Positions 1,043 to 34,409 of a stretch of DNA of 64,000 bases are shown piece after piece. The first letter of the stretch is position 1. Each line of letters opens with the position of its first letter. The translations under genes were made by a program, and so were the position numbers. The notes beneath the pieces are model-generated. The model had not been told where the DNA came from. It made no database searches and saw only the letters and a program-made list of their open reading frames with translations. The DNA comes from Squalus acanthias (taxonomy: Eukaryota), in assembly GCA_030390025.1 (NCBI GenBank), contig CM059431.1, positions 129,582,001 through 129,646,000 on the forward strand, in the 5' to 3' direction.

Positions 1043-2737
1043 TTTTTTTTTATTCATTCACAGAATGTGGACGTCGCTGGCAAGGCCAGCATTTATTGCC
1101 CATCCCTAATTGCCCTTGAGAAGGGGGTGGTGAGCCGCCTTCTTGAACCGCTGCAGTCCTTGTGGTGAAGGTACTCCCACAGTGCTGTTAGGGAGGGAGT
1201 TCCAGGATTTTGACCCAGGGATGATGAAGGAACGGCGATATACTTCCAAGTCAGGATGGTGTGTGACTTGGAGGGGAACTTGCAGGTGATAGTGGTCCCA
1301 TGCGCCTGCTGCCCTTGTCCTTCGAGGTGGTAGAGGTTGCGGGTTTGGGAGGTGCTGTCGAAGAAGCCTTGGCAAGTTGCTGCAGTGCATCTTGTAGATG
1401 GTACACACTGCAGCCACGGTGCACTGGTGATGCAGGGAGTGAATGTTTAAGGTGGTGGATGGGGTGCCAAATAATCAGGCTGCTTCGTCCTGGATGGTGT
1501 CAAGCTTCTTGAGTGTTGTTAGAACTGTACCAATCCAGGCAAGTGGAGTGTATTGTATCACACTCCTGACTTGAGCTTTGTAGATGGTGGAAAAAATTTG
1601 GGGAGTCAGGAGGTGAGACACTCGCCACAGAATACCAAGCCTCTGACCTGCTCTTGTTGCCACAGTATTTATGTGGCTGGTCCAGTTAAGTTTTTGGTCA
1701 ATTGTGGCCCCCCAGAATGCTGATGGTGGGGGATTTGCCGATGGTAATGCCATTGAATGTCAAGGGGCGGTGGTTAGACTCTCTCTTGTTGGAGATAGTC
1801 ATTGCCTGGCACTTGTGTGGCACGAATGTTACTTGCCACTTATCAGCCCAAGCCTGAATGTTATCCAGGTCTTGCTGCATTCAGGCATGGACTGCTTCAT
1901 TATCTGAGGAGTTGTGAATGGAACTGAACACTGTGCACTCATCACCGAACATCTCCACTTCTGACCTTATAATGGAGGGAATGTCATTGATGAAGCTGCT
2001 GAAGATGGTTGGGCCTAGGATACTGCCCTGAGGAACTCCTGCAGCGATGTCCTGGGGCTGAGATGATTGGCCTCCAACAACTACAACCATCTTCCTTTAT
2101 GCTAGGTATGACTCCAGCCAGTGGAGTGTTTTCCCCCTGATTCCCATTGACTTCAATTTTACTAGGGCTCCTTGATGCTACACTCAGTCAAATGCTGCCT
2201 TGATGTTAAGGGCAGTCACTCTCACCTCACCTCTGGAATTCAGCTCTTTTTTCCATGTTTGGACCAAGGCTGTAATGAGGTCTGGAGCCGAGTGGTCCTG
2301 GCAGAACCCACAATGAGCATCGGTCAGCAGGTTATTGGTGAGTAAGTGACGCTTGATAGCACTATCGATGACACCTTCCATCACTTTGCTGATGATTGAG
2401 AGTAGGCTGATGGGACGGTAATTGTCCGGATTGGATTTGTCCTGCTTTTTGTGGACAGGACATACCTGGGCCGTTTTCCACATTGTCGGGTAGATGCAAA
2501 TATTGTAGCTGTAGTGGAACAGCTTGGCTAGAGGCACGGCTAGTTCTGGAGCACAAGTCTTCAGCACGGTAGCCGGAATGTTGTCAGGGCCCATAGCCTT
2601 TGCTGTATCTAGTGTACTCAGCCATTTCTTGATATCACATGGAGTAAATTGAACTGGCTTCTGTGATGGTGGGGACCTCAGGAGGAGGCCGATATGAATC
2701 ATCCACTCGGCACTTCTTGCTGAAGATAGTTGCAAAC
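1043..2737 (-). mobile_element. 5'-truncated CR1-group LINE (degraded RT ORF2) with poly(A) tail
   Basis: Minus-strand ORF fragments with [28 protein letters not shown] and a decayed FADD motif; T-run at 1043-1051 is the A tail. Confidence 0.9.
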
Positions 2738-3450
2738 TGGCAGAACCCAAATGAGGGTCAGAGCTTCAGGGACACGGCAGCATGAGGTAACCAGGCAGAG
2801 AATCACTACCCTGCCAGTCACATGTAACCACCCACCCCTGTATCTCCTCACAACCTGACACTGCCAGATCTCAGATCCTTCCTCAAATCACAGAACCTGT
2901 GGCCGGAATTTTCTGGGGTCCATGCGGGCGCGATTGGAGGCGGGTCGGATGGGAAATTTGAAATACGTTGGAGTAGGTCGGGAACCTGCCGTCATCCCGC
3001 CCCCCTTGCACCTTTCCCTCGGGTGCGTTTGCTGGTGCAGCAGCGACCCGAATGGCAGAGGCGGGCGACCTAATTTAAATCATTAACAGGTACTTGTCAG
3101 ACCCTTAAGCGCCTTTTTAACCCTACCATTCAAATTTCACTGGATGGCCACGGGAATCTCGCAGCTCGGGAACCACGTCTGTCAACCTGAGGCAGGAGTT
3201 GAGTGGCCATTGATCTAGCTGATTAGTTGACAGCATGAAATATACTATAAAACTCTCCCCTGACAGCTGATCACTTTCCTCAGGCAGAAGCTATTGCTGA
3301 CTGTATTGCCAGCATAGATTTAGTTTTTTTGAGGCTGCAAGTGTTTCCAGCAAAGTTGCCATCCAGTCTCACCCCATTGGTAGAACCTATCGCACCATTG
3401 ACAAATTGCTTCTCTCATCTCTTACTTGACCTGCCATCAATTTCATCAGC

Positions 3451-4331
3451 ATGGGTGCCATTTATACTGTCTCACCTTGGTCCTCCGAATCGGACCACTA
3501 TGAGCCAGCAGCACCAGGCACACCAGCAGCACCAACAACACAACACCACCAACCTTCTCCTCAACCACCTGATGCTGCACAAGACAGAGGGCATCAGCAC
3601 AGGGCTGCACCATGCCAGAGGTGATACCCCCAACACTGGGTATACAGGCAGAGGATGAGCTTCCTCAACATGACTGAGCAGCAGTGCCATCGCAGACATT
3701 TGCACATTGCTGGAGCAAGATCTGCAGCCCAGAGGAGCAGGTGGACACGCCTTAGGAAATGGCTGTCAAAGTCACCAGCGCCCTCAACTTCTTCGCCTCA
3801 GGCTCCTTCCAGGGATCTGCAGCAGGCATTTGCAGCATCTCGCAGTTGGCCGCCCACAGATGTATCACACAAATCACCGATGCCCTGTTTGACAAGTCAG
3901 CCAATTATATCAACTTTGCCACTGATCAAGCCACTGTTACTGAGCAGGCATTCAGCTTTGCCACTCTGGCTGGCTTCCCATGGGTGCAGGGCATCATCGA
4001 CAGCACACATGTGGCCATCAGGGCACCCCATCATCACCCAGGAGTCTTTGTCAACCGCAAGGGCTTCCACTCCCTCAATGTGCAGCTAGTCTGCAACCAT
4101 AGGAAGATCATCATGGATGTGTGTGCCAAAATCCCTGGCAGCTGCCATGACTCTTTCATGCTGCGCCAGTCCACCCTCCCTCAGCTCTTCGCTCATCCAA
4201 ACAGACTTTCCAGCTGGCTGCTTAGAGACAAGGGCTATCCACTGAAGACGTGGCTCATGACACCCTTGAGGAGGCCAAGTACTGAGGCCGAGGAGAGATA
4301 TAATGAAAGCCACATTTCCACCAGATGTGTC
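3451..4331 (+). pseudogene. Harbinger DDE transposase, 5' part
   Basis: [56 protein letters not shown]; frameshifted N-terminus. Confidence 0.92.
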
Positions 4332-4905
4332 TGTAGAATTCGCAATATAATCGCGATTTTATAAATAAGGAGGAGACACATAGTTTCGTACAAACAGCTT
4401 TATTTCAGCAGAATGCTGTCAGGTTTTCAAAGTGGACACAAGCAGCCTGTAAAATGGCCGCCACGCCTCGTGGCAGAACATTCTAGACTTTTCGATAAGC
4501 AGACAAGATGGCGTTCCAATAAACATTTGTGCGAGATCGATCAAGACTCAGCACATTTGAGATAATACACAAGACATTATGGGTTTGCAGTATACACATA
4601 AATACTGGAATCGGTCTCCCAGGTGCGAATAAAGGGCTATTGTACCAAGCGATCAAGAACCCATCCAAAGACATTAATATGCAAAATCCCCATGACTCTA
4701 CGATGAGAGAGCCGTTTGCGGGTAGTTACAGAAAACATTTGGAAGCCCCAAAACCCCTCCAGGGAGAATACTGACCGGTTACACATTGGGAAAAGTATTA
4801 ACAGGTACTCAGGCAGTTACGAGTATCCCCGAAACCCATTAAACGGAGATCACCCTATACAAGAAGTTTGAGCGCCAAAACTCTGACAAAAGAAAAGACA
4901 TTAAG

Positions 4906-4940
4906 ATTGGGCGGGAAAAAGAGGAGTTTCAGCACTATAA
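4906..4940 (+). promoter_or_regulatory. Putative LTR promoter (inverted CCAAT, GC box, TATAA)
   Basis: ATTGG-GCGGG then CTATAA at 4935-4940; GC box and TATAA also kept in the diverged inverted LTR (14536-14563). Confidence 0.6.
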
Positions 4941-5774
4941 CTGTAAACTACAACCGTCCATCTTTCTCTTATCCTCTTGACTCCTTGCCGCTTGCCTCGT
5001 GTCTCTGCCTCTTGCAGCTCTTGCTGTTTGACTTGCTGAAAGACTATTGAACTTTCTGATCCGCCAGGATCTGCCTCGTGGCTTGCCGCAAAGATCTGTG
5101 TGGAACTGGGCTGTGAAGCCTTGAAGCGGGCACACCATCCCGAGAAGTCGGTAAATGGTGTTGGAACCGAAGGCCCGAGATGAGATGAGATGAGATGAGA
5201 AGAGAAGAAGACGACCATACGTATCGCCACGGTCAGTAAGCCCCGACCGCGCCTGTAGGTCGAATAGACACTTTCTTTGCCCAGGAAGACTATCTTTTGA
5301 GTTCTACAGAACTGGCATCGGAAGACCATTCTTCGAATTTTATCGCATCGGGGCGAGGGCACAGGAAGACTATTTTTTGAGTCGTGTCGGAACTCCGAGG
5401 ACAACACAGATCTTCATGACAACAGACGGTCCAGCCTGCTAGCCGGAGCAGAAACGAGTAAACAAGTGGGGTACAGAGACCCCTGATCAACACGTGGGTG
5501 ATCAGGTGCTGCGGTAAAAACATCCGAGCAGAGTTTTCGGAATTCTCCGAGTTATCACGAGTGGTGAGCATGAGTCTCGATCCTACAAATCTAGTTTAGG
5601 TCAGGTATTGATAGGGGAGGGTTTAAGTTTTAAGGATAATTGTAATGTGTGCCCCCATTTACGATGTGTCGTTCGTTCCTCGTTTCCCAAAAATTAGTTA
5701 CATAACTGCGTGTAAGATTGTACTGTCATTAATCTGTGCTTATGACATGTATTTCGTAATCTTGAATAATATGC

Positions 5775-5780
5775 AATAAA
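5775..5780 (+). terminator. LTR poly(A) signal (3' LTR copy at 17729-17734)
   Basis: AATAAA present in all three LTR copies, ~235 bp before the LTR end. Confidence 0.6.
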
Positions 5781-6019
5781 GATTTTCCATTTCACACTAA
5801 TCAACCGGGTCTACCTGAGTTTTCTCTGCATTATTGCTCTCGCACCTAAGTCCAGTGTCAGAACCGTAAGGGCGAGTGGGTCGAACCACTCACAGGGGTC
5901 TAGTGTTACCAGGCTGGCTGGAGACCAGAACAGGCAACAAGGCCTAACCTCACACTAGCGCCCAGGCTGAGCACAGAGCCACAGGCGGTGTCACACACGT
6001 GTCAAAACCCTCACAGAAA

Positions 6020-7816
6020 ATGGCGACCGCGGCAGGACACTGGCAGCAAGAGGGTAATGTGTTAGACTTTGGTATGATTGGGCGAAATGTCATGGAAGAG
6101 AGAATAGCAGATTATGTGTTCGGAAAAGTGAATTTGACCAAGAAATGGATAAGTGACCTGCTGGTGGATAAGCATCCACTAGAGGCGGCCGAGAGGTGGA
6201 CAGATAGCAAGGAACATAAAAAGGCAGTGGAGAAAGCGGTCTGGCTGATGTGCTATAAAAGACAAGTCCAAATTTCGGACCAGGTCATCACAGCGCAAGC
6301 AGCTCGGATCAGGCGTTTAGAGGTGGAAATGGACGAGAAGGTCGCGGGGGGGCAGCAGCTCATCACGACTTTAAATGCGTTGCATCAAGAACGCCAGGTA
6401 GTCACCAACCACCATAAAACAAAAATAGATTACCTCGAGTGCCAGGTCACTGAGGCAAAGTTAAGTGAGGGTAGATTAAAGGAACGATGTGCCTGCCTAG
6501 CTGCCCAAATAAAAGCCCAGGAAGAGAGCTTAACGGGGGTTAGGGCGGCATATAAGATGGCCCTCGAGGATAAATTTCAGGGGGCCGATCACAGCGTCTG
6601 CCAAAAGGAGATAGAGCACCTTAAAAGGGCCGTGAACAAAGCGCACGGCATGGTGTGCCTTATCAGTCCGTCAGCACACCAGCCGCTAGTGGATGAGGGA
6701 TTTCAGAAATCCCCACCGAACAAAGCAGAGGAAGTATTAGCCACTATGCCCTCCGCGCTACCCAGCTATTCGGAAACCTGGGTAAGGGAGGAAGTGGTGG
6801 AAGTAACGAAAGAGCCCACTGAGGTAGAAGTGAAGCCGGGACCGTTGTGTCCGGTCACGGGTATCAAAAGGGGCCCGAACAGAGACAGTGGGGAAGAAGG
6901 GGATCTCCTCAACCAGCTTGTGTTGCCTCACAGCTCACACCAGCTGAGGATTATGATCAGTCACGTACGGAAGCTGGCCGAGTCAGACGACCCTTCCGTA
7001 CATTTTAGGGAAATAGAGCAAACCGCAGCCATTAACGGCTGCGACGATGGGGAAACAGCAAAGATGCTGTTATTCTCATTAGATAGCTCGATCCTTCAGT
7101 GTCTCTCAGACGAGAGCAAGAGGGGAACTAATACCTATGGGGCACTAAGAAATGAGGTCCTAGAAGTGTTGGGAGCAGACGATGAAGGTCCGTTTGTTAG
7201 ACTGGGACAGATGGAGGGAGAACCCCCGAAGGTTTTCGCCGACAGGCTGTGGCCAGTATACCAGCGTAGCTGCCCAGGTGCGCCAGAGCGCGCCGATGTG
7301 GAAGGCGTCGGTTTAACTCATTGGCTCAGGTGTATAGTAACCAACAGTTTGCCAGCCGTCAGGGAGCAGGCAAAAGCGTGGTTTGATCCCACTAACCCCG
7401 CCACTACAGAGGAGTCGGTCCGAAATCGACTCACGGTAGGGTACCGTAATACCAGGAGTACGGGAGCACGTCCCCTTAAGGGAAAGGTGCGTGAGGCACG
7501 ACCCGCAGCCCCGGCTCAAAAGGAGTGGCATCAGGAGGGTAACCGCGCCCCGCAGGCCAGCAATGCTTGTTACGGGTGTGGGAAGACAGGGCACTGGCGC
7601 AAGAACTGCAGGAACCCTTGGAAGGATTCCAGGGATAAAAATCCCGCAGCCCGAGCCCAGGCGCCTGTCTCTGATAGGGAAGCTAGTGCACCCATCCATC
7701 CCGACGCGATCGAAACAGTGTTGGGAGCCATGCGTAACCTCATGAGTGCGCATGGAAGGGTGGCGGTTGCTACCGGCCCCGCAGGTGCCACAGCCCCGTC
7801 CAATAGTACCCAATGA
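6020..7816 (+). CDS. gag: Gag, 598 aa, intact: N-terminal coiled coil, capsid with MHR-like QMEGEPPKVFADRL, one CCHC knuckle
   Basis: Open ORF; CYGCGKTGHWRKNC at 7568-7609; AAAATGG start context. Confidence 0.9.
   Translation: MATAAGHWQQEGNVLDFGMIGRNVMEERIADYVFGKVNLTKKWISDLLVDKHPLEAAERWTDSKEHKKAVEKAVWLMCYKRQVQISDQVITAQAARIRRLEVEMDEKVAGGQQLITTLNALHQERQVVTNHHKTKIDYLECQVTEAKLSEGRLKERCACLAAQIKAQEESLTGVRAAYKMALEDKFQGADHSVCQKEIEHLKRAVNKAHGMVCLISPSAHQPLVDEGFQKSPPNKAEEVLATMPSALPSYSETWVREEVVEVTKEPTEVEVKPGPLCPVTGIKRGPNRDSGEEGDLLNQLVLPHSSHQLRIMISHVRKLAESDDPSVHFREIEQTAAINGCDDGETAKMLLFSLDSSILQCLSDESKRGTNTYGALRNEVLEVLGADDEGPFVRLGQMEGEPPKVFADRLWPVYQRSCPGAPERADVEGVGLTHWLRCIVTNSLPAVREQAKAWFDPTNPATTEESVRNRLTVGYRNTRSTGARPLKGKVREARPAAPAQKEWHQEGNRAPQASNACYGCGKTGHWRKNCRNPWKDSRDKNPAARAQAPVSDREASAPIHPDAIETVLGAMRNLMSAHGRVAVATGPAGATAPSNSTQ
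6021..6038 (+). other. Primer-binding site, tRNA-Arg(UCG)
   Basis: TGGCGACCGCGGCAGGAC is complementary to the 3' 18 nt (GUCCUGCCGCGGUCGCCA) of vertebrate tRNA-Arg-UCG as I recall it; lies 5 nt after the LTR end. Confidence 0.85.
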
Positions 7817-10800
7817 CTAGAGCCCGCACAGCCCGTCTACCTGTGTCCGCTCAGCTATGATGCGTGGAAGCGACCCCTGGTGGAGATGGAGGTATAGAAA
7901 CAGAAGGGTAGTTATTTGTTGGACACGGGAGCTTCTTGCACCGTGATTCATACAGATAGCCCTTTTGACTCACCGCTATCTACCAAGGTCCCATTCACAT
8001 TAGCGGGGTTCACGTTAAAGAACAGGCTGGCGCGTTCTCCCTTCCGCTATCCATTCATTTAGGAGCACTCCACACCACGTGGAAGTGCATACTGATGAAA
8101 TGGCAAGAGGGAGGTGGGAGAGGCATCCTCGGGTCCGATCTCCTATCGGGGCACGGGATCCTCGTGGACCTCAGGAATCACTGTCTCTGGGGGGCTAAGG
8201 GTGGAGAAGGCGAGGTAGTGGTAATTCCGGGGGAGGAAGAAACAGGGGCCCTGTGTACCATGAAGCCATCCGGAGGCTACGACCTCGGGCTTATGGTCGC
8301 GGATGTCCCAACGGACATGCAAACGTACGTGTCAGATAATATGCATGCGTTTGCAACCCACAAGCACGATTGTGGGAGGGTTACCGGGTTTGAGGTCAGC
8401 GTAGATGGGGACCCCATGACCCGGCCCCAAAAGCAGTATAACTTCCCCAAAGAAGCAGAACCCGACATGGAGACAGCAATGTCCTCCTTGGTGCAGCAGG
8501 GCATGTTGAGGCCGATAGCCACACACGTGAACTCCCCATTATGGCCGGTTAGGAAGCCGGGTAATTCGTGGAGGGCCACGGTGGACTACAGAGTCCTTAA
8601 CAGTAACATTCCCGCCTGCGCGCCCACGGTAGCAGCAGTCGCTGACCTAATAGGGAGTATCCCAGCGTCCGCGACCACGTTCACGGTGCTGGATATCTCG
8701 AACGGTTTTTGGTCCATCCCGCTGCGGTGAGAGGACCAGTACAAGTTTGCCTTTACTTTCAAAGGACAACAGTACACATGGAACTGTCTGCCACAGGGTT
8801 TCCACAACAGCCCCAGTATTTTCCATCAGTGTATGGCAGGAAGTTTAAAGGAGTTTAGTCAGCCCAATCAGATAGTACAGTACGTGGATGATTTGCTCCT
8901 ATTTACGGATCAAAGGGAGGAGCATGGACCACTGCTGGCCGAGTTATTGGAGCTGCTAGCGAGAAAGGGTTTTAAAGTGAACCCTAAGAAAGCACGTATC
9001 GGTCAGCAGGAAGTAAAATTCCTGGGGCTGACCATTCGCGCTGGGGAAAGAGCCATAGATATGGCTAGGAGGGAGTCGGTGCAAGAGTTACCGATTCCCA
9101 ACACCATAAGGGGTGTGAGGTCCTTTTTGGGACTGACCGGTTATTGCAGGGATTTTATCGAAGACTATGCGGCCACAGCGGCGCTGCTGCTCCGACTCCT
9201 CCATAAGGGAGTGGAGTGGTCTTGGGACGAGGGCTGCCAGGCAGCCTTCGAGAAGTTAAAAAGGGATTTGCAGACCGCGCCAGCTTTAGGGGCCATAGAT
9301 GGGGGGAAGGAGTTTTTCCTGGAGGTAGCTGCCAGCGGGGACAGCTTGAGCGCTGTGCTGCTCCAAGAGCGTCACGGCAAGCTGAGGCCGGTTGTCTATT
9401 CGTCCAGGGTGTTAACGGATGTGGAGAGGAGTTTCTCCAACTGCGAAAGGCACCTTTTAGCCACGCATTGGGCTGTGAAAAGATCAGCGATCTTCACAGG
9501 GCTCTCTCCCATCACTCTCCTCACCCATCACACACCAACTAAGATGCTTCTAGATGGGAGGATTAAAGATGGGACCGTAAGCAGCGCGCGTATTGCGCAC
9601 TGGACCCTTCTTCTTTCCCAGATGGATCTTAGAGTTAAAGGTCTTTGCGAGCCCAGGCTTGCGGCCAATTTGGTATACCCCGGTACAGCCCAGCAGTGTT
9701 CGGTGGAAGGGGTGTGGGAAGTCAACATAGGTTTGCGGGCCGGGATACATCCCACTGGGCGCGAGATTTATGTTGATGGTTCCAGCACAGTGTCCGCTGG
9801 CGAACGACTCACAGGGTGTGGAGTTTATGACCCTGCGGCAAACCTTGCCCTGGCGATTAAGCTCCCCAGCACCATGAGCGCGCAGCAGGCTGAGCTGTCT
9901 GCAGTGGTGTACGTCGTTACCCACCCAGAAATTTTCCCAACCCCATACACGATTTGCTCGGACAGTATGTTCACATGCAATTCGTGTACGGAATACCTGG
10001 CCATTTGGTCCCGCCGTGGATACAACTCCGCGGACGGGCGACCTTTAACGGTGAAGCCCTTGCTGGAAAAGATCCTAGCAGCAGTAGGGGAGGAAGGGGA
10101 GATTTTCATCCATAAGGTGAAGGCTCACTCCTCCACAGAGCCCCGTGGGGAGGGCAACCAGCAGGCGGATGCGCTAGCCAGGGAGGGTGCCCGCAACGGC
10201 ATTTTCTGGGACCCCTATGGGCCCAGACCCATGGCAGCGATCCAAGGCAGGGACGGGAATCCCGGGAACACCAGGGTAGCATTGCCCCTAGACCTTAAGA
10301 CCGTCCAGAACCAGGATCCCGCCCTAAAAGCAGTCCTCAGAACCCTTGCTGAGGGGAAGCAGGTAGAGGGTCCGTACAGTACGGCAACCCTCTCAGTCAA
10401 GGAAGGCATGCTGTTCCGCGAAGAGCAGTGGGTTGTGCCGCAGCAGCACAGGAGGGAATTCCTCCAGTTGGCTCACGAGGGACCGGGGGCAGGGCACCCC
10501 GGGCCCGAGGTTACCTGGCAACGGGTAGAGCAAGCGGGATGGTGGCCGGGGCTCAGGGAACAGGTCCGCGAGTTCTGTGCAAGCTGTCTCGTGTGCGCTG
10601 CAAATAACCCAGACCCCCAGAAAAGGAAAGTGCCCATGAGGCACGTCAGGAGGGTAGAGGGACCATGGCAGTCTATACAGATCGACTATATAGGGCCCCT
10701 GCCCACCACCCAGGGAGGCTATAAATACTGCCTCGTCTTGGTGGATGAGTTTTCCAAATGGGTGGAAGCCTTCCCCTGTAGAACAGCTACGGCACTGGGT

Positions 10801-12314
10801 ACTGCAAAAATCTTGGTCCGGGAAGTGTTCTCGCGGTGGGGACTTCCCCGTTTTGTGGAGTCAGACCAAGGGAGTCATTTCACCGGCCAGGTGATGCAGA
10901 ACACCCTCATGCTTTTGGGCATTGAAGGGAAATGGCACGTAGTGCACAATCCCCAGTCATCCGGGATTGTTGAACGCATGAACCGGACCCTGAAGGAAAA
11001 ATTGAGGAAAGAGACTACGAACTCGCCCCAAAAATGGGCGGAGGTTCTGCCTTTAGTCCTCATGGGGGTCCGGGCCAGTCAGTCGAAAAGTACGGGGTAT
11101 TCCCCGCACGAGGTGATGACTGGGAGGATCATGCGAACCCCCACCCATGTGCTAGCGCCGGTGCTCACGGAGGGTCAGCTCCAAGAGATAAGCAGGGACA
11201 AGTTCGCCCAGACCCTCTTGGAGCGCCTGAAGCAGGTTTATGAGCAGGCAGCTGGGAACATGGGAAGGCAGCATCAGGCAATCGCCTGTTGCTGGAACCC
11301 CGCAAAACGCGGGAGTGGGAAGTAGGAGACCAGGTCATGGTCAGAAACTACGCCAGAGTAGGGAGTCTGGAACCACTGTATATGGGACCCTACAACATTG
11401 TAGATAAGGCGAGTCCCATGGTATACGCCGTAAAGGTACCTCGGCGCACTAAGTGGTTCCACGTAAACCAGTGCAAACTGTACAAGCCAGGTGCACAAGG
11501 GCCAACCACAGGGGCCAAACCTGCGAGTGGGGAATCGCAGCCAGAGGTAGGGCCACAGGGCACACAGGCAGGCAAAGCAGCTTGCATCAGGGGAGGGGAC
11601 ATCCTGGAAAATTGTGAGACATTTTTGTGGGGTTGGGAGTCAGATGAGGATAGTGAAGATAGTGAAAGTGAGGATAGTGAAGATAGTGACACAAGCGAGG
11701 AGGAGCGGGAATCGGAGGACGAAAGGGTCGCCCCCGATTCAGGTATAGGAGGGACAGGGGCTGCAGATAGAGATCCACAAAGGGTGGAGGCCGAAGCTGC
11801 AGGTCCTGAACGCAGGGGGGAGGAGCTAGGGGAGGCGGAGCCAGCCGCTGTGGTGGGACCACAGGGCGTGGCGATGGAAGCCTCAGAGCCCGAGCCGCCC
11901 GCCTTGAACGTCTTGCCCTCGAGGGAGGTAGGGACTGCGAGTGAAGGGCCGCCTACTGGGCCAAGTAGGGCGGTGCCACAAGTTGCAGATCCCGAGTTCA
12001 GGGAGGCGGAGCCAGGGGAGGCGGAGCCAGCGACTGTGGCGGGACCACAGGTCGCCACGGTGGAAGTCTCGGAACCCGGTCCGTCGGTCCTGGAGTTCCT
12101 GCCCCCGGTAGCTCTCCGTAGGTCGGGTCGGATACCCCAGCCCAGGAAGGTATGGTCAAGTCCCCAGACTGTCCCAAGGCGTAGGCGCAAGGCTCAGGCA
12201 GCCCAGGGAGAGCCCAGTCCCAGCGCAGCAGCAACAGGCTGCGGCAGATCAAAGGGAGGGGTCAATGCCCTCCCACCGTCGGGAAAGGCTCGGGGCAGCC
12301 TTTTCAGAATTTAA
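7817..12314 (+). pseudogene. pol: Pro-Pol (PR, RT, tether, RNase H, IN, long C-terminal tail) with 4 lesions: TAG 7895, 1-bp deletion ~8015, TGA 8728, 1-bp deletion ~11280
   Basis: LLDTGA (DTG 7922-7930), LPQGFHNSP, YVDD 8881-8892, IYVDGS...AELSA...SDS...GNQQADALA, HHCC zinc finger, D10684-D10864-E10972 (D-35-E), GPY motif. Confidence 0.93.
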
Positions 12315-12614
12315 ATAGGCCGCCCTGGGAACGGGCGGCGCTGTACAGTCATAAGGTTAAGGATAAGGTTATAGTTTTCAATATAAGGTTATAAGGTTAT
12401 AGTTTTAAATCGGTTTAAGTCGGTAGTTTAATTTTGTTTAATAGAAAGAGGTAAAATGATGACAGTTTTAGAGATAGGATTAGTTAAAGTTTATCCAGCG
12501 CACATGTCTTCTTACGTGAGGCGAGGTCAGGGGACCCGCTCACCCTTCACAAAAGCCAGAGACTCTTGCGAGGCTGGCTACCTCATTCTATCTGATCACA
12601 GGAACCAAGGAAGG

Positions 12615-13667
12615 ATGGAACGAATTCTAGTATTGCTCGCGGCAATCGGATGTGGATTGGCCTATCGAGGCCACACCAAGGATGTCGTGGTGTTTGGATG
12701 CTCCGGGGACACGGCCCCCATCGCGGTGGATGGGACCGGAAGACGAGAGGCTGAGGAGACCACCACCTATTTCCACAAGGGAAGGTGGCCAGGATGGCTG
12801 GGAACTAACTCAACGGAGTATTCCAGCACATCGGGTTTTGCCTACCAAGAGACTTCTTTACTGTGCCCCAAAGTAAGGATCATCGCACCCAGGATCAGCA
12901 TCAGCGTCAGCAAACGGATTTGTTTGACTTGTAATGGGAATGTCCCATTGAGCCGATGGTGGTGGCTACGAAAGCTGAGCAAAAACATGAGGAACTCTTC
13001 GGTCGAGTGGGAGCGACTGGGTAATAATACCCATCGGACAATTACGGGGACAAACGGACAAGTGAGAGTCTGTTGGGACAAATGGTGGGAACCGCATGAG
13101 GGAATTTATGTATGTATGTGGGGGTCAAAATACGTTTGCCCCAAAGGCATCTCCATATTTTTCATTAATCAATGGCAGGATAACGGACAGGGGATGAGGT
13201 GGGATGCGAGCACCAGGGGGTGCGGGGCCCCATACTCCCCGATCCCGGTAAATGCCACTGAACTCATTACGCGCCCACGCAAAGCCCCGCCCACGATTCC
13301 GGTGGTTCTAGCTAAGGAAGAAGGGTGCCCTAAAACCAGTAAGGGACCCGGGAATGGTTTGGTACTGGTCCCCACAGACCAGATACTATTTCAGGGGGTA
13401 CATTACGCGGTGGCCTCGGTGATTTTAAATCTCACCGAGGTGCGGTTACCAGAGTGGTGCCCCAAAAAGACGGAACAGTTATATCAGGTCCTGTTGACCA
13501 AGATGTTCAGACAATTCTATGAGTTCGATTTCGCGGAAATTGATAAAACAAGTTTGTACACCGCACCACATGAAGTTTTGGATCAGGTGGGGAGGCAAAG
13601 AAGGGGTGTTGTGAACGACGCGTTCACTGCTTTCAACACAGGTACATCTGTGGTCAACGCTCTAGAC
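12615..13667 (+). pseudogene. env: Env 5' part: signal peptide, Ig-like domain, F2-like region, furin site, fusion peptide
   Basis: MERILVLLAAIGCGLA signal; several N-x-S/T sites; RQRR 13593-13604 then GVVNDAFTAFNTGTSVVNALD; candidate splice acceptor TCACAG|G at 12601. Confidence 0.85.
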
Positions 13668-13669
13668 GA

Positions 13670-15142
13670 AATGTACGAAATGGAAAATCTTTATTGCATA
13701 ATATTTAAGATTACGAAACACATGTCATAAGCACAGATTAATGACAGTACAATCTTACACGCAGTTATGTAATTAATTTCAGGGAAACGAGGAACGAACG
13801 ACACATCGTAAATGGGGGCACACATTACAATTATCCTTAATACTTAAAACCCTCCTCTATCAATATCTGTCCTAAGCTAGATTCGTAGGATTCGAGACTC
13901 ATGCTCACCACTCGTGATAACTCGGAGAATTCCGAAAACTCTGATCGGATGTTTATCACCGCAGCGCCCACGTGTCGATCAGGGGGTCTCCTGGCCCCAC
14001 TTGTTTACTCGTTTCTGCTCCGGCTAGCAGGCTGGAACGTCTGCTGTCATGAAGATCTGTGTTGTCCTCGGAGTTCCGACTCTACTCAAAAAAAGAGTCT
14101 TCCTGTGCCCTCGCACTGATGCGATAAAATTCGAAGAATAGTCTTCCTGTCAGTTCTGTAAAACTCGAAGAAGTCTTCCTGGCAAGGAAAATGTCTATTC
14201 GACCTACAGGCGCGGTCGGAGCTTACTGACCGTGGCGATAAGTATGGTCTTCTTCTCTTCTCATCTCATCTCATCTCATCTCATCTCATCTCGGGCCTTC
14301 GGTTCCAACACCGTTTACCGACTTATCGGAATGGTGCGCCCGCTTCAAGGCTTCAGAGCCCAGTTCTACACAGGTCTTCGCGACACGACACGAGGTAGAT
14401 TCGAGCGGATCGTAAAGTTCAACAGTCTTTTTGAAAAGAGACACGAGGCAAGCAGGAACAAGACGGCGAGTCAAAAGCAGCCACGAGGATAAACACCAGC
14501 AAGATAAGAGAAAGATGGACGGTTGGAGCTTGTAATTATAGTGCAAAATCTTTCGTTTCCCGCCCAACCTTAATGTCTTCTCTTTTGTTAGGGTTTGGCG
14601 CTCAAAAGTCTTGTATAGGGTGATCTTCGTTTTAATGGGTTTCGGGGCTACTCGTAAACGTCTGAGTACCTGTTAATATTTCTCCCATTGTTTAATCGGT
14701 CGGCGTTCTCCCCGGAGGGGTTTTGGGGCTTCCAAGTGTTTTCTGTAACTACCCACTAACGGCTCTCTCATCGTAGAGTCGTTGGGATTTTACATATGAA
14801 TGTCTTTGGATGGGTTCTTGATTACTTGGTACAATAGCTTTTATTCGTACCTGGGAGACCGATTTCAGTATTTATGTGTATACTGTGAACCCATGATGTC
14901 TCGTGTATTATCTTCAATGTGCTGAGTCTTAATCGATCTTGCACAAATGTTTACTGGAACGCCATCTTGTCTGCCTGTCGAAAAGTCTAGAATGTTCTGC
15001 CACGAGGTGCGGCGGCCATTTTACAAGCTGCTTGTGTCCACTTTGAAAACCTGACAGCATTCCGCTGAAATAAAAGCTGTTTGAACGAAACTATGTGTTT
15101 TTCTCCTTATTAATAAAATCGCGATATATTGCGAATTCTACA
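13670..15142 (-). repeat. Inverted U3-R-only LTR of a sister subfamily inserted in env
   Basis: Reverse complement of LTR 4332-~5800; about 20 differences in the first 250 bp by eye; no TSD. Confidence 0.92.
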
Positions 15143-15843
15143 GTGGCCGGGGAGCACACATAATACTGTGTCCCCAGCACTTGAATGCCTTTTTAACACC
15201 ACAGTGCGGGTTCAGAACGGCTGGTGCCAAGTCCATGAATTGCACCATGGAGGCAATGGCACAAGATCATGTGCCTCCGCAGGTAGCATACATCGGGGGT
15301 GGAACATATTGTGTTACCACTGCAGCGCAACACTACCAGCATGGAAACCGTAGCCGGTGTCCGGTAAGTGACAGCAGTTTCTGTTTCAAACCCAGGGCGG
15401 AAGTTCAAGTAGCTCAACAGCGAATTGTCCCAATCCCTGAACCATCCACGGTTCATCTTACCGTCAAAGAGAACTTCACCGACCTGCAGCAATTCGTCGC
15501 ACACTTCGGATACCTCATTCCCCCTCTCCCTGAACACCTCACCAAGCTTTTGAAAGCCGTCGCGGTATCACAAAAACATTTTTACACACTAGAACAGAAA
15601 ACTGTCGAGATAGGGACAGAAATTCTGGACATAGTAATTCCACCGTGGTGGAATCTGTTCTCCAACATTGAAGTGCCTTCCTGGATTAGAATAGCCTCCC
15701 ACATTTTAGTTGTATGCCAAGTGTTTATTGTGGTATACTTATTGGTCGTGCATTGTAAGAGAGGCAAACGCCTCACCAAGAACGAAAACACGGGAGAGTG
15801 GCGAGAACGTTACGTGCGCGTGCACGATGAAAGCACCGTGTAA
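15143..15843 (+). pseudogene. env: Env 3' part: Cys-rich F1-like region, heptad, TM anchor, basic tail
   Basis: Open frame from 15145: ILCPQH..PQC..NCTM..YIGGGTYCV..RCP..FCFKP, then LTKLLKAV..LEQKTVEI, TM IASHILVVCQVFIVVYLLVV, KRGKR. Confidence 0.85.
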
Positions 15844-16279
15844 TCAGAAAATGGCGTCACTCCCGTTTGCCACGTGTGCCTCGGAAGTGTTGTAATCGAT
15901 CGTGATTTTTTTCAGAGACTGTAATTACGTTTGGAACTCGACATGTTTAAGAGTTGGTTTTGATTATTTTGGTGATGGTGTTGTTGTTGAATATGATTGT
16001 TTGGTTTTGTTTTGTTTTTCTTTTCCCTGAATAAAAAATATGAACATACAGGTGATACGAGAGGCATCGGCCTGGTTACGCCTGGAAGGAAAACAAGTGG
16101 TGTAAGTTTTAAAGGCAAATAATGCCTGCGGTGTTATAAGAATGTAATTTTCCTGGGAAATAAGGACGACACAAAGACCCTAGATAGTTTAAGTTATGGG
16201 GATTTTCTGGATCTGGAGAAATCGAGATAATATTGCTCACCACAATATTTTTGATACGATAAGCGGAGTTATTCGCATC

Positions 16280-16291
16280 AACAGGAGGGAC
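16280..16291 (+). other. Polypurine tract
   Basis: AACAGGAGGGAC immediately before the 3' LTR TG. Confidence 0.75.
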
Positions 16292-17969
16292 TGTAGAATT
16301 CGCAATATAATCGCGATTTTATAAATAAGGAGGAGACACATAGTTTCGTACAAACAGCTTTATTTCAGCAGAATGCTGTCAGGTTTTCAAAGTGGACACA
16401 AGCAGCCTGTAAAATGGCCGCCACGCCTCGTGGCAGAACATTCTAGACTTTTCGATAAGCAGACAAGATGGCGTTCCAATAAACATTTGTGCGAGATCGA
16501 TCAAGACTCAGCACATTTGAGATAATACACAAGACATTATGGGTTTGCAGTATACACATAAATACTGGAATCGGTCTCCCAGGTGCGAATAAAGGGCTAT
16601 TGTACCAAGCGATCAAGAACCCATCCAAAGACATTAATATGCAAAATCCCCACGACTCTACGATGAGAGAGCCGTTTGCGGGTAGTTACAGAAAACATTT
16701 GGAAGCCCCAAAACCCCTCCAGGGAGAATACTGACCGGTTACACATTGGGAAAAGTATTAACAGGTACTCAGGCAGTTACGAGTATCCCCGAAACCCATT
16801 AAACGGAGATCACCCTATACAAGAAGTTTGAGCGCCAAAACTCTGACAAAAGAAAAGACATTAAGATTGGGCGGGAAAAAGAGGAGTTTCAGCACTATAA
16901 CTGTAAACTACAACCGTCCATCTTTCTCTTATCCTCTTGACTCCTTGCCGCTTGCCTCGTGTCTCTGCCTCTTGCAGCTCTTGCTGTTTGACTTGCTGAA
17001 AGACTATTGAACTTTCTGATTCGCCAAGATCAGCCTCGTGGCTTGCCGCAAAGATCTGTGTGGAACTGGGCTGTGAAGCCTTGAAGCGGGCACACCATCC
17101 CGAGAAGTCGGTAAACGGTGTTGGAACCGAAGGCCCGAGATGAGATGAGATGAGAAGAGAAGAAGACGACCATACGTATCGCCACGGTCAGTAAGCCCCG
17201 ACCGCGCCTGTAGGTCGAATAGACACTTTCTTTGCCCAGGAAGACTATCTTTTGAGTTCTACAGAACTGGCATCGGAAGACCATTCTTCGAATTTTATCG
17301 CATCGGGGCGAGGGCACAGGAAGACTATTTTTTGAGTCGTGTCGGAACTCCGAGGACAACACAGATCTTCATGACAACAGACGGTCCAGCCTGCTAGCCG
17401 GAGCAGAAACGAGTAAACAAGTGGGGTACAGAGACCCCTGATCAACACGTGGGTGATCAGGTGCTGCGGTAAAAACATCGAGCAGAGTTTTCGGAATTCT
17501 CCGAGTTATCACGAGTGGTGAGCATGAGTCTCGATCCTACAAATCTAGTTTAGGTCAGGTATTGATAGGGGAGGGTTTAAGTTTTAAGGATAATTGTAAT
17601 GTGTGCCCCCATTTACGATGTGTCGTTCGTTCCTCGTTTCCCAAAAATTAGTTACATAACTGCGTGTAAGATTGTACTGTCATTAATCTGTGCTTATGAC
17701 ATGTATTTCGTAATCTTGAATAATATGCAATAAAGTTTTTCCATATCGCACTATTCAACCGGGTCTACCTGAGTTTTCTCTGCATTATTGCTCTCGCACC
17801 TAAGTCCAGTGTCAGAACCGTAAGGGCGAGTCGGTCGAACCACTCACAGGGGTCTAGTGTTACCAGGCTGGCTGGAGACCAGAACAGGCAACAAGGCCTA
17901 ACCTCGCACTAGCACCCAGGCTGAGCACAGAGCCACAGGCGGTGTCACACACGTGTCAAAACCCTTACA
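16292..17969 (+). repeat. 3' LTR (1678 bp)
   Basis: TGTAGAATTC...ACCCTTACA followed by TSD TGTC. Confidence 0.95.
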
Positions 17970-17973
17970 TGTC

Positions 17974-30678: not shown

Positions 30679-31839
30679 ATGGGGGCTGCAATGATTGGGG
30701 GCGTCGTCCTGCTCCAGCTGAATCGGAGGATACCGAGACGCAGACAGAGAGTGGCAATGATGGCCAGACGGAGGAGGGCCATCAGGCACATGTACAGGAG
30801 AGCTTACCCTCCCAGGGTATATCGTGAACAGCTCTCCTACATCCATATGTCCGAGGAGCTGTGTTTGCGGAGGCTGTGATTCAGCAAGGAGGTGGTCACT
30901 GAGCTCTGCCACCTGCTGCAGCCAGATCTGCAGCCTCAGCTGAGGTCCAGGACGTCTCTGTCGGTGGCAGTGAAGGTCACAGTGGCGTTGAACTTCTACG
31001 CCACTGGCTCATTCCAAGCTGCTGTTGGGGACCTCGCCAATATCTCCCAGTTTGCGGTGCATCGCTGCATCCGGCAGGTCACCAATGCCCTCTTCAGAAG
31101 GAGACGAGACTTCATCTCTTTCCCTATGACCCCAGACAAGCAGCGTGACCGTGCTCTGGGCTTTGCGAGGGTAGCGGGCTTCCCCATGGTGCAGGGCGCC
31201 ATTGACTGCACGCATGTGGCTTTGCGTGCTCCGCGAGAGAATGCAGAGGAATTCAGGAACAGAAAGGGGTTCCATTCCTTGAATGTGCAGTTGGTCTGTG
31301 ACCACAGACAGGTGATACTCGCTGTCAATGCCCACTATCCGGGCAGCTGCCACGATGCTTTCATCCTGCGCCAGACTACTGTGGCAGAAGTTTTCGAGGC
31401 ACCGCATCAGCCAGTTGGTTGGCTTCTGGGGGACAAGGGGTACGCATTGAGCACCTGGCTGATGACACCGCTCCGTACGCCAAACACCCCTGCTGAGCTG
31501 CGGTACAATGAAAGCCATCAAGCAACCAGGAACATTATTGAGCGCACAATCGGCGTGCTGAAACAACGGTTCCGCTGTCTGGACCATTCCGGAGGAGCCC
31601 TGCAGTACTCGCCTGAGCAAGTTTCGAACTTCGTAGTGGTGTGCTGCATGTTGCACAACATGGCAATCCTCAGGACCCAGCCAATGCCACCAGGCCTTGC
31701 AGCACCACCAGAGGAGGAGGAGGAAGAGGAGGAAGAGGACGAGGACGATGATCATCAGCAGCACCAAGGCAGGAGGGCGGCCCACAATGGTCAAACTGCA
31801 AGGGCCGTCCGTCAACGACTAATAGCAAGCCGCTTCTAG
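30679..31839 (+). pseudogene. Harbinger DDE transposase with one in-frame TGA (30877-30879)
   Basis: GAIDCTHV, PGSCHD, LLGDKGY, IERTIG; RRL*FSKE consistent with CGA>TGA. Confidence 0.92.
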
Positions 31840-32132: not shown

Positions 32133-34013
32133 CTACTTTTTGCCCTTCGAGGGTGATCTCCTTCCCTTGCGCACTTCCCCCCTTCTAACCCTACTGCTCC
32201 TCCGTAATGGGACCTCAGTGGCTGCAGCAAGGCTGGTGGAAGGCTGCTGCTCGTCAGACCCTGACACTGCAGATGCCCCTGAAGGACGGCCTCGACCACT
32301 TCTGGGCCTGGAGGGCCCGGCTGCAGACTGCAACAACTCTGCATGGGCGGCAGCAGTCTGTCCTACAGGCGGTGGCAAGTGCAGTGGAGAAGTGACAGTG
32401 TTGGCAGCAGGAATGCTGTCATCGTGAGAGAGGCCAGCAACTCCCTGCTCGCCCGACACACTGGCACTCCCACGGGGCAGCACTTCAGCATCCGGAGCAA
32501 TCTGCCGGAGAACAGATTGCTGGCCTGCTGCGGCGCGGTGACAGCCCCGGGGACATGTGCACGAACCATCGAGGTTGGCAGCAGTCTGTGCTCGCGTGGC
32601 CTCCATCTGAGTCTGTATGAGAGCAGTCAGAGGTGGGATCACGGCAGCCAGTGACTGAATTGCAGCACTAAGCGTTAGTGTGGCATCCGCCTGTGCTACA
32701 GCGAAGTGCTCCACACTCCTTGCCAGTGACTCAATGCATTCGGGCACCCTTCCCACTGCACCCATGAGCTCAGTGTGCATGCACACCGCCTGGGTGTTCA
32801 TTTCTGCAATCAGCCGCTCCTCCTCTGCGTCCATTGCAGTAGGAGTGTCTGGCATACTCTCCCTCTGGGGAGAAGGCCCCCGTTCTTCCCTACCCCCCCC
32901 CCCCATGGCGTTGCTGCAGCCCGCTGGGTCCTGGAGCTTCACCCTCATCAGCCCCTTCCCCCCTGCTCCCCTCCGGGGAAGGCGTGTTCCCAGTGTGGGC
33001 ATGGGCTTCCTCGGGAGAGGGTGGCACTGATGCTCTGGCTTCCTCTTCCTCCTCAGCTGCAGCATCACTCCCAGTGGCAGCTTCAGGGCCCGTCTCCTCA
33101 GCTGGTGAATCACCATCTGAAAGCAGGGAGGTACAAGAGTGGCTTTAGCGTGAGGACAGGGTGGCAGTAAGGGAGGAATAAGTGCAGCGAGTTAGCAAGT
33201 TGGATTGAAAGTGTCAAAGGCTGGTGTTGTGAGGGACAAGTGGAAGGACAGAGGACAAAAAGGTGATGACCTTACCATTGCTGTCCAGAACGGGGTCGGC
33301 GTCTCCAGTGGCGACGGGACCGATCACCCGGCTTGCCACAATCCTGTGGACGCGCTCCTCCAGATCGCTGAGGGGTTGCAGCTGAAGCCGCCCTCCACCT
33401 GTCCGTTGCTGCTGTCTCCTATTATGAGCCAGCTTAGCCTGCAAGAAAAAGGACAGCATCTGAGTAAATATACAGCCATGGTGTTGCCTGATGTGCCTCC
33501 CATAGGTGAATAGCCCTTACTGTATACAGCCATGGTCTTGCCTGATGTGCCTCCCATAGGTGAATAGCCCTTACTGTATGCAGCCATGGTCTTGCCTGAT
33601 GTGCCTCCCATAGGTGAATATCCCTTACTGTATGCAAAGTGTGGAATGTGTGTGTGTGTTTGATGAAAGGGCCATAGGTGTTGGATGAGTGTTGTGCATT
33701 GGGGTTTTAAGACCCTCTGGCCATAGAGTGAGGTTGAGATGGAGGGATGGAGAGGTATTGAGAAAAAGCCACTCACCCTGACGACCCGAGTGAGGTCGTT
33801 GAACTTTTTGCGGCATTGAGTATGGGTCCTGGGCACCATGCTCCTGGAGGAGACGCTCTGAGCCACCTCCCTCCACACTCTTCTTAACTCGCGTGGCAAA
33901 GGCCTCCTGCCACTCTCAGGGAACAGCATACATCGTCTGCGCTCCACTGCGTCAACCAGAGCATCCAAGGCCCGCTCGGTGAAGCGATGAGCGCGTTCTC
34001 TCCCCCTCTCCAT
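32133..34013 (-). pseudogene. Myb/SANT-like partner, exons 34013-33777, 33438-33276, 33116-32133; one frameshift in a G12 run (32893-32904)
   Basis: RFTERALDALVDAV..WREVA..QCRKKFNDL; canonical GT-AG with matching phases; 11 G would restore the frame. Confidence 0.85.
33471..33634. repeat. Tandem repeat, 3 x 54 bp, in Myb intron 1
   Basis: Unit TACAGCCATGGT(G/C)TTGCCTGATGTGCCTCCCATAGGTGAATAGCCCTTACTGTA starting at 33471, 33525, 33579. Confidence 0.95.
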
Positions 34014-34409
34014 GCTTGGCAGCAAAATGGATTCACAGGTCTCTCCAGGCTGAGATTCAAGGCTGCAATGAGCAGGGTGTGGCTGGGGAGCAAGTGGCCC
34101 CCCCCGCTTTAAGAAGTGTCCGGCGCCAGTGTGTCTGTGTTCCCTCGCTAACTGGCAGCAGCTGCGCTGCGCTCACGCGCTGAGTTAGCGCCTCACTCCT
34201 TGGCCTTTGCGCCTTAAGACAGGTGTGCAGTGCCTGCTTTAGCGCTCCACTCACCTCCCGGGGCGGTAAAAGTGAAGTTTCCTGTCAGTGCCAATAATTA
34301 GCGCCAGGCGCTAATATTTGCGTCCGGACGATATTTGCGCCCCAAATGGGGCGCGACCTAATTTCTACCCCTATATAAATACAAGTTGTTGTTGTTGTTG
34401 TTGTTGTTG

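What the first reader, a model, noticed from the sequence alone, without database searches (positions are those of the whole stretch)
13350..15843. Env resembles a paramyxo/pneumovirus F-type protein rather than classic retroviral SU/TM
Seen: G-L-V-L..beta-rich..LPEWC before the furin site RQRR; a fusion peptide GVVNDAFTAFNTGTSVVNALD; a distal cluster of 6 Cys in ~80 aa; then heptad, WW, TM. No CX6CC or ISD motif in the surviving part. Known: this layout is typical of F1 of Mononegavirales and related F-type fusogens. Inference: HR-A and the region after it have been deleted here.
Basis: partly seen in the sequence, partly recalled or inferred. Interest (0 to 1): 0.7.

Follow-up and report, generated by a model that had tools for sequence, protein, structure and literature searches.

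The report
F-type envelope on snakehead-like shark provirus
This is a dead endogenous retrovirus, probably of a shark or skate, whose broken envelope gene belongs to a family that folds like the fusion protein of measles- and RSV-type viruses, although its polymerase resembles snakehead retrovirus rather than the retrovirus groups already known to carry such envelopes.

Summary
Observation confirmed; interpretation supported. The env of a 13.6-kb provirus (4332-17969; LTRs 98.9% identical) is split by an inverted, 222-nt-short copy of a sister LTR (about 13672-15142), and about 200 residues, including HR-A, are missing against uninterrupted relatives. Neither half hits Pfam. A model of a natural uninterrupted relative (bamboo shark, 33% identical to the C-half) matches paramyxo/pneumovirus F (40 of 40 listed PDB Foldseek rows) and foamy Env. 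F-like retroviral Env is known (lokiretroviruses, foamy viruses). This element looks like neither. By hand count its RT is 59% identical to elephant-shark CmiERV lineage I (snakehead-retrovirus clade), 50% to SnRV and 38% to one lokiretrovirus; 0 of 6 chondrichthyan genomes had lokiretroviruses in the original screen. CmiERV-I itself has a gamma-type env (ISD, CX6CC), so envelope class differs between close pol relatives. About 215 extra N-terminal residues include a weakly supported Ig-like domain. No tree with named references was possible. The scan reported this family before at other loci of this genome (F-type plus Ig domain; SnRV clade). New variant of a known kind.

The parts
4328..4331 (+). 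left 4-bp target-site duplication, inside a Harbinger-type (DDE_Tnp_4) transposase gene
4332..6015 (+). 5' LTR, 1684 nt, TG...CA, AATAAA at LTR position 1444
6021..6037 (+). primer-binding-site-like motif, similar to that of CmiERV lineage I; tRNA-Ser type is recalled, not tested
6020..7816 (+). gag, open frame, CCHC zinc knuckle; ends in a UGA-CUAG context with pro in the same frame
   Evidence: (zf-CCHC E 0.0036, below cut-off)
7817..12314 (+). pro-pol: PR, RT, tether RNase H, RNase H, integrase, then an acidic/Pro-rich tail; broken by stops at 7895 and 8728 and by frame changes near 8000 and near 11250-11320
12615..13670 (+). env N-terminal half (352 aa): signal-peptide-like start, N-terminal extension, F2-like part, furin site, post-cleavage peptide
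12870..13172 (+). probable Ig-like domain (residues about 86-186); weak support
   Evidence: best Z 4.2 on a pLDDT 33.5 model; Ig_3 E 1.0
13326..13604 (+). F2-like segment (Cys, long beta-strand, LPEWC, helix) ending in furin site RQRR 13593-13604
13605..13667 (+). putative fusion peptide, weakly hydrophobic, assigned by position
13672..15142 (-). inverted copy of a sister-subfamily LTR (87.6% BLAST identity, K2P 0.095 to the flanking LTRs); intact LTR start at 15142, last 222 nt of the LTR absent, no target-site duplication; left edge uncertain by about 10 nt
15145..15843 (+). env C-terminal half (232 aa): six-Cys beta region 15169-15384, heptad 15526-15633, WW 15646-15651, TM 15691-15750, short tail
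16280..16291 (+). polypurine tract
16292..17969 (+). 3' LTR, 98.9% identical to the 5' LTR (13 substitutions in 1677 sites, K2P 0.0078)
17970..17973 (+). right target-site duplication; the transposase reading resumes

Best explanation
A defective provirus of the snakehead-retrovirus-like lineage (clade Huo) in a probable elasmobranch genome. Its ancestor entered cells with a paramyxo/pneumovirus-F-type class I fusogen: a signal peptide, an N-terminal extension with a probable Ig-like attachment domain (inferred), an F2-like strand and helix, furin cleavage exposing an N-terminal fusion peptide, HR-A refolding into a trimeric coiled coil, Cys-rich beta domains, and HR-B packing back next to the TM anchor (mechanism inferred from the fold). 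In this copy a sister-subfamily LTR lies in antisense inside env and about 600 nt of env plus 222 nt of that LTR are gone, most simply by antisense integration, collapse to a solo LTR and a deletion at a short shared sequence (inferred). This copy cannot make a fusogen. Because a close pol relative, CmiERV lineage I, carries a gamma-type env, envelope class was exchanged at least once within this lineage; the direction is unknown.
For: Shown: motifs and a 199-200 aa gap. Relatives in skate, sharks and frogs (of 10 looked up, 7 elasmobranch, 2 frog, 1 unnamed). Model of P0009 (C-half 33% identical over 184 aa): 40 of 40 listed PDB Foldseek rows are paramyxo/pneumovirus F, best E 3e-11; the top 16 VIA-align rows are 14 F proteins and 2 foamy Env chains, Z 10.3 to 5.7, foamy prefusion Z 7.7, rmsd 4.5 over 261 residues, first unrelated row Z 5.5; ESM Atlas top three clusters Fusion_gly, 0.92. 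RT falls with PQG-type retroviral RTs, 100/100, apart from Ty3/gypsy (49 of 57 rows kept). Hand count on 131 RT positions: CmiERV-I 77, SnRV 66, Loki-Lch 50. CmiERV-I clusters with SnRV (PMC4422223) and its env shows ISD and CX6CC when read by eye. Lokiretroviruses were found in 0 of 6 chondrichthyan genomes, one of which encodes P0009.
Against: No sequence-profile support: 0 Pfam families for both halves; profile A1 found no F protein in the PDB at E<=10. The fold evidence comes from a relative whose model is middling (mean pLDDT 56.9, pTM 0.42, residues 1-179 unresolved) with large rmsd to several F chains (19 A for the top row). The link of the N-half to P0009 is weak (26% over 62 aa, E 1e-5). 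The ESM hit for the window's own C-half has low recognition (1676). RT placement rests on by-eye counts; my tree held no named SnRV, CmiERV or loki sequence. In the RT thumb stretch Loki-Lch scored slightly higher than SnRV (22 versus 20 of about 63). The fusion peptide is weakly hydrophobic. The Ig-like call is below any threshold.
Confidence: 0.8

Rival explanations
1. It is the first cartilaginous-fish lokiretrovirus, so the F-like Env is simply the known loki Env with an N-terminal addition.
For: F-like Env, furin site and dual RNase H are loki features (PMC7947760). Loki-Xtr Env shows the same order of elements by eye. Closest pol hits are named NYNRIN-like, and loki IN is close to CGIN1. 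Two earlier scan reports named loki Env as closest.
Against: All 24 loki RTs in the published alignment have PFG where the window has PQG. Hand-counted identity 38% to Loki-Lch versus 59% to CmiERV-I and 50% to SnRV. 0 of 6 chondrichthyan genomes were loki-positive. Loki-Xtr Env reaches its furin site at about residue 113, the window at 327.
Confidence: 0.08
2. F-type Env is the native envelope of the whole SnRV lineage, perhaps of SnRV itself, and already implicit in databases; CmiERV-I is the recombinant. The finding is then an ordinary member of that lineage.
For: F-type relatives occur in frogs as well as sharks, where close pol relatives also occur (about 50% RT identity). BFVD rows include WEHV-1 and WDSV Env (E 2e-9 and 3e-8). 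A listed preprint on anamniote Env diversity (10.1101/2021.11.23.469661, listing only) may cover Env-Pol incongruence.
Against: SnRV Env is not among the 50 rows listed of 60 with E<=0.001 (inconclusive). Physical linkage of frog env and frog pol hits was not shown. Searches listed no paper whose title or abstract start states this.
Confidence: 0.35
3. The env is a divergent classic SU/TM (gamma-type) protein and the F match reflects generic helices.
For: One CXXC in the N-half; one relative has a weak GP41 hit, E 0.041; a probable Ig-like N-terminal domain recalls the IgV-like RBD of type-C viruses (10.1101/2024.03.17.585361).
Against: No CX6CC or ISD in 5 of 5 uninterrupted-middle relatives. 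The post-cleavage subunit is about 450 aa with a large beta region. Structural matches span model residues 189-600, including the beta domains.
Confidence: 0.02
4. The inverted LTR and the deletion arose before this copy integrated (for example by one-ended integration or template switching) and were copied in trans, rather than by later insertion and deletion at this locus.
For: The insert is 12 times more diverged from the flanking LTRs (K2P 0.095) than they are from each other (0.0078); it ends about 18 nt after the AATAAA, near the likely R/U5 border; antisense orientation would not end the genomic transcript (inference).
Against: A co-circulating sister subfamily explains the divergence equally well; the intact LTR start at 15142 fits ordinary integration.
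Confidence: 0.3

Closest known systems
CmiERV lineage I, elephant shark (Han 2015, PMC4422223), snakehead-retrovirus clade
   Same: RT 77 of 131 positions identical by hand count; similar PBS, PPT and LTR start; UGA at the end of gag; cartilaginous-fish host
   Different: Its env is gamma-type with ISD and CX6CC (by eye); LTR about 830 nt versus 1684 nt here
Lokiretrovirus Env (Wang and Han, PMC7947760)
   Same: F-like Env (PF00523 similarity in that paper), signal peptide, furin site, fusion peptide, coiled coil, TM; dual RNase H
   Different: Different RT signature and lower RT identity; none reported in Chondrichthyes (0 of 6); lacks about 215 N-terminal residues present here (Loki-Xtr)
Snakehead retrovirus (SnRV)
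   Same: RT 66 of 131 (111 of about 258 over the longer stretch); in-frame gag-pol with stop readthrough (PMC13517186)
   Different: SnRV uses UAG, has a 518-nt LTR, a 136-aa Env tail and accessory ORFs (PMC12193657); here UGA, about 30-aa tail, no ORF of 120 aa or more between env and 3' LTR. Fold of SnRV Env not tested
Foamy virus Env (PMC11468914; PDB 8RM0, 8RM1)
   Same: Shared F-type core (Z 7.7 and 7.3)
   Different: Foamy Env has an inserted RBD and two membrane spans; this element has a zinc-knuckle gag and in-frame gag-pro, unlike foamy viruses (recalled)
Paramyxo/pneumovirus F; baculovirus and errantivirus F-type proteins
   Same: Fold and domain order (10.1101/2023.10.26.564294)
   Different: Only 9-15% identity; long N-terminal extension; weakly hydrophobic fusion peptide

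Membership tests
F-type class I fusogen (paramyxo/pneumo F-like) | F core fold spanning both cleavage products | tested here: met
   on natural relative P0009; not on the window's own broken protein
F-type class I fusogen (paramyxo/pneumo F-like) | furin site, HR-B, TM in the right order | tested here: met
F-type class I fusogen (paramyxo/pneumo F-like) | HR-A after the fusion peptide | tested here: not met
   deleted in this copy; helices at this place in the relative's model
F-type class I fusogen (paramyxo/pneumo F-like) | hydrophobic fusion peptide | tested here: inconclusive
   mean KD 0.5
F-type class I fusogen (paramyxo/pneumo F-like) | Pfam Fusion_gly or Baculo_F match | tested here: not met
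   one sub-threshold Baculo_F hit in 25 proteins
F-type class I fusogen (paramyxo/pneumo F-like) | trimer and membrane-fusion activity | not testable with these tools
   no complex prediction run; activity needs the bench
Gamma-type retroviral Env | CX6CC and ISD in TM | tested here: not met
   absent in window and in 5 of 5 relatives; no TLV_coat hit
Lokiretrovirus | RT signature and similarity | tested here: not met
   PQG versus PFG in 24 of 24; 38% versus 50-59% by hand count against one loki RT
Lokiretrovirus | RT monophyly with named lokiretroviruses | tested here: inconclusive
   tree held no named loki row
Lokiretrovirus | dual RNase H and F-like Env | tested here: met
   dual RNase H is shared with all retroviruses
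SnRV clade (clade Huo) | RT closest to SnRV/CmiERV lineage I | tested here: met
   by-eye counts against three references only; grouping with PQG-type retroviral RTs
SnRV clade (clade Huo) | formal phylogenetic placement with named references | not testable with these tools
   no SnRV or CmiERV sequence came back as a usable record
SnRV clade (clade Huo) | Env of the same type as SnRV Env | tested here: inconclusive
   SnRV Env not among the 50 listed rows
Spumaretrovirinae | pol separate from gag, no zinc knuckle (recalled) | tested here: not met
   CCHC motif and in-frame gag-pro
Immunoglobulin-superfamily domain (N-terminal extension) | Ig fold | tested here: inconclusive
   about 36 of 50 rows Ig-type by title, but best Z 4.2 on a poor model; Ig_3 E 1.0

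The most novel reading that the evidence does not exclude
F-type Env is not confined to foamy and lokiretroviruses but occurs inside Orthoretrovirinae (this SnRV-like family, and possibly the walleye epsilonretroviruses WDSV and WEHV-1 seen). It would then be the ancestral retroviral envelope, repeatedly replaced by gamma-type Env, with both classes still found on close pol relatives in cartilaginous fishes, and with this family adding an Ig-like attachment module so that one protein both binds and fuses.
Probability: 0.3. Interest if true: 0.75.

Novelty: new variant of a known kind. Interest (0 to 1): 0.5.

Why it matters
Wang and Han left four scenarios open for the origin of retroviral env, and later preferred independent gains by lokiretroviruses and canonical retroviruses (PMC9040795). 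An F-type env on a canonical, SnRV-like pol, beside a close relative with gamma-type env, makes those scenarios testable with trees and shows that the two structural subclasses of class I fusogen can be swapped on one retroviral backbone. This particular copy is dead and is a poor representative; the interest lies in the family.

Tried and rejected
Pfam on both env halves and on 32 other entries gave no Fusion_gly or TLV_coat hit. A profile of 15 env sequences found no F protein in the PDB and only 11 close relatives in the protein database. A viral-contig scan with the RT found nothing; the env-profile scan could not run. No whole genome is held, so other copies of this genome could not be read. 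The window's own N-half folded poorly (pLDDT 33.5) and had 0 BFVD matches at E<=0.001. Four hits were left out of later work: P0015, P0023 and P0024 are unrelated repeat proteins and P0019 was not fetched. In the RT tree 8 of 56 hits were dropped for short coverage. Sequencing runs: 20 listed, no RNA holder listed. Contigs of 4 runs cover both env halves and the LTR as many divergent short pieces (10,683 laid in X1), but the rows shown neither bridge the junctions nor tell whether they recur. Assembly artefact was rejected for the insert because it differs by 9.5% from both local LTRs. No tRNA gene lies in the window to test the PBS. Calcraft 2024 was not held. No complex prediction was run.

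Full report
Observation. CX6CC and ISD patterns are absent from both halves and from 5 of 5 relatives that run through the missing middle. The post-cleavage peptide is weakly hydrophobic (mean KD 0.5), so 'fusion peptide' rests on position.

Context. The env belongs to a provirus at 4332-17969 with 1.68-kb LTRs (13 substitutions in 1677 sites, K2P 0.0078), a 4-bp target-site duplication, PBS-like and PPT motifs, inserted in a Harbinger-type transposase gene. With the rates used in PMC7947760 and PMC4422223 (2.2e-9 and 2.2e-10 per site per year) that is about 2 or 18 million years; both rates are borrowed. gag is open; pro-pol has PR, RT, tether, RNase H and integrase but is broken at several places.

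The lesion. Between about 13672 and 15142 lies an inverted copy of LTR positions 1-1462, 87.6% identical by BLAST (K2P 0.095). Its LTR start is intact, its last 222 nt are absent, and there is no duplication around it. Two uninterrupted relatives match the window on both sides with 199-200 residues between, and that middle matches nowhere in the window. In the model of P0009 the missing part corresponds roughly to residues 297-503: three long helices and the following strands. The left junction shows a short stretch shared by env and LTR and a 9-nt near-duplication, which fits a microhomology-guided deletion (inference). Whether the lesion is older than this integration is open; one search did not settle it.

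Fold. Sequence profiles failed. Searches found relatives in elasmobranchs and frogs. I folded a natural uninterrupted one, P0009 from Chiloscyllium punctatum (739 aa; 33% identical to the C-half over 184 aa, 26% over 62 aa of the N-half). The model is middling overall (pLDDT 56.9), but most blocks at 181-250 and 371-600 score 70-90. All 40 listed PDB Foldseek rows are paramyxo- or pneumovirus F (best E 3e-11). The independent aligner ranks 14 F chains and 2 foamy Env chains first (Z 10.3-5.7, ranges 189-600; rmsd 4.3 to 28). BFVD adds baculovirus F, arthropod negative-strand virus glycoproteins, a fish filovirus glycoprotein and walleye retrovirus Envs. ESM features give Fusion_gly at 0.92; for the window's own C-half they give clusters with some Baculo_F members, with low recognition. 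The F-type assignment for the family is solid; for the window it is transferred by homology.

N-terminal extension. Compared with Loki-Xtr Env (furin site near residue 113) the window has about 215 more residues. Residues 86-186 have Ig-like Cys/Trp spacing; about 36 of 50 structural rows are Ig-type by title, but at Z of 4.2 or less on a pLDDT 33.5 model, and Pfam Ig_3 scores E 1.0. An attachment role is inference.

Which retrovirus. F-like Env suggested a lokiretrovirus, but the RT disagrees. All 24 loki RTs in the supplement of PMC7947760 have PFG where the window has PQG, and the window groups with PQG-type retroviral RTs (100/100; no named SnRV or loki row). By-eye counts on the first 131 RT positions give 77 identities with CmiERV lineage I (translated by eye), 66 with SnRV and 50 with Loki-Lch; over about 258 positions SnRV 111 and Loki-Lch 86, although in the last stretch Loki-Lch is slightly ahead (22 versus 20). 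These counts are approximate and cover three references only. Han placed lineage I with SnRV, and Xu et al. call this clade Huo. The loki screen found 0 of 6 chondrichthyan genomes positive, including C. punctatum, which encodes P0009. CmiERV-I has similar termini and PBS, yet its env shows an ISD and CX6CC (by eye). So two close pol relatives in cartilaginous fishes carry different envelope classes.

What is known. F-like Env in lokiretroviruses (PMC7947760: parts 1-3 of 4 and supplement parts 8, 67, 68 plus searches) and in foamy viruses (PMC11468914: passages) is published; F-type env is widespread in Ty3/gypsy elements (10.1101/2023.10.26.564294: passages) and across viruses (PMC12583693: passages). 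I saw passages only of PMC9040795, PMC12440569, PMC6001957, PMC8922424, PMC10435555, PMC12193657, PMC13517186, PMC13709493, PMC11521997 and 10.1101/2024.03.17.585361, and part 1 of 2 plus supplement part 1 of 3 of PMC4422223. Searches listed no paper whose title or abstract start reports an F-type Env on an SnRV-like pol, but the library lacks most subscription papers. I saw only the listing of 10.1101/2021.11.23.469661 (from recall it reports frequent Env-Pol recombination among gamma-type Envs of fish and amphibians) and nothing of Calcraft 2024; either, or bioRxiv supplements that I could not see, could lower the novelty. The scan itself reported this family at three other places of the same genome; I had written the F-type, Ig-like and SnRV readings before seeing them, and they are not independent evidence.

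Verdict. Real feature, first reading supported, mechanism class known. The new element is the combination: F-type Env with an N-terminal extension on an SnRV-like backbone, and a class difference from CmiERV-I. New variant of a known kind; interest 0.5, limited by prior loki and foamy work, a dead copy and a placement that still needs a tree.

Noticed in passing
window 7814-7820: gag ends in UGA followed by CUAG with pro in the same frame; this is a well-known leaky stop context (recalled), and UGA readthrough is reported in other fish and frog retroviruses (PMC13517186).
   Followed up: partly
window 11480-12314: After the integrase SH3-like end the frame continues for 277 acidic, Pro/Ala/Gly-rich residues, with a 141-nt repeat at 186-nt spacing.
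   Followed up: no
window 6020-6037: The first ATG of the gag frame overlaps the primer-binding-site motif; the real start may be a later Met.
   Followed up: no
window 3756-4331 and 17970 onward; also 30880-31836 and 33324-34172: The provirus interrupts a Harbinger-type transposase; a second copy with a Myb/SANT partner gene lies nearby. Related repeats at 26601 and 55320.
   Followed up: partly
BFVD rows 1, 14, 28: Best structural match of the shark Env model is the glycoprotein of a fish filovirus (Wenling thamnaconus, E 2.4e-13); walleye epsilonretrovirus Envs also match, with low TM-scores (0.25, 0.12). Leads only.
   Followed up: no
P0003, P0005, P0006, P0016: Shark and skate gene models fuse pieces of this env to Niban-like, cadherin-related and fbxo15 genes or skip its middle; probably annotation chimeras, co-option not excluded.
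   Followed up: no
P0029 (Xenopus tropicalis), P0013 (Pelodytes): Frogs hold Env of this family; P0029 differs by eye from the published Loki-Xtr Env of the same species, so X. tropicalis seems to have two F-type env families.
   Followed up: partly
window 5178-5200, 14266-14293, 17140-17157: The LTR carries a 5-nt microsatellite of variable length.
   Followed up: no
window 2184-2765 and 37154-38320 (minus strand); 33469-33636: LINE-type RT fragments and a 54-nt tandem repeat inside the ORF region beside the Myb gene.
   Followed up: no
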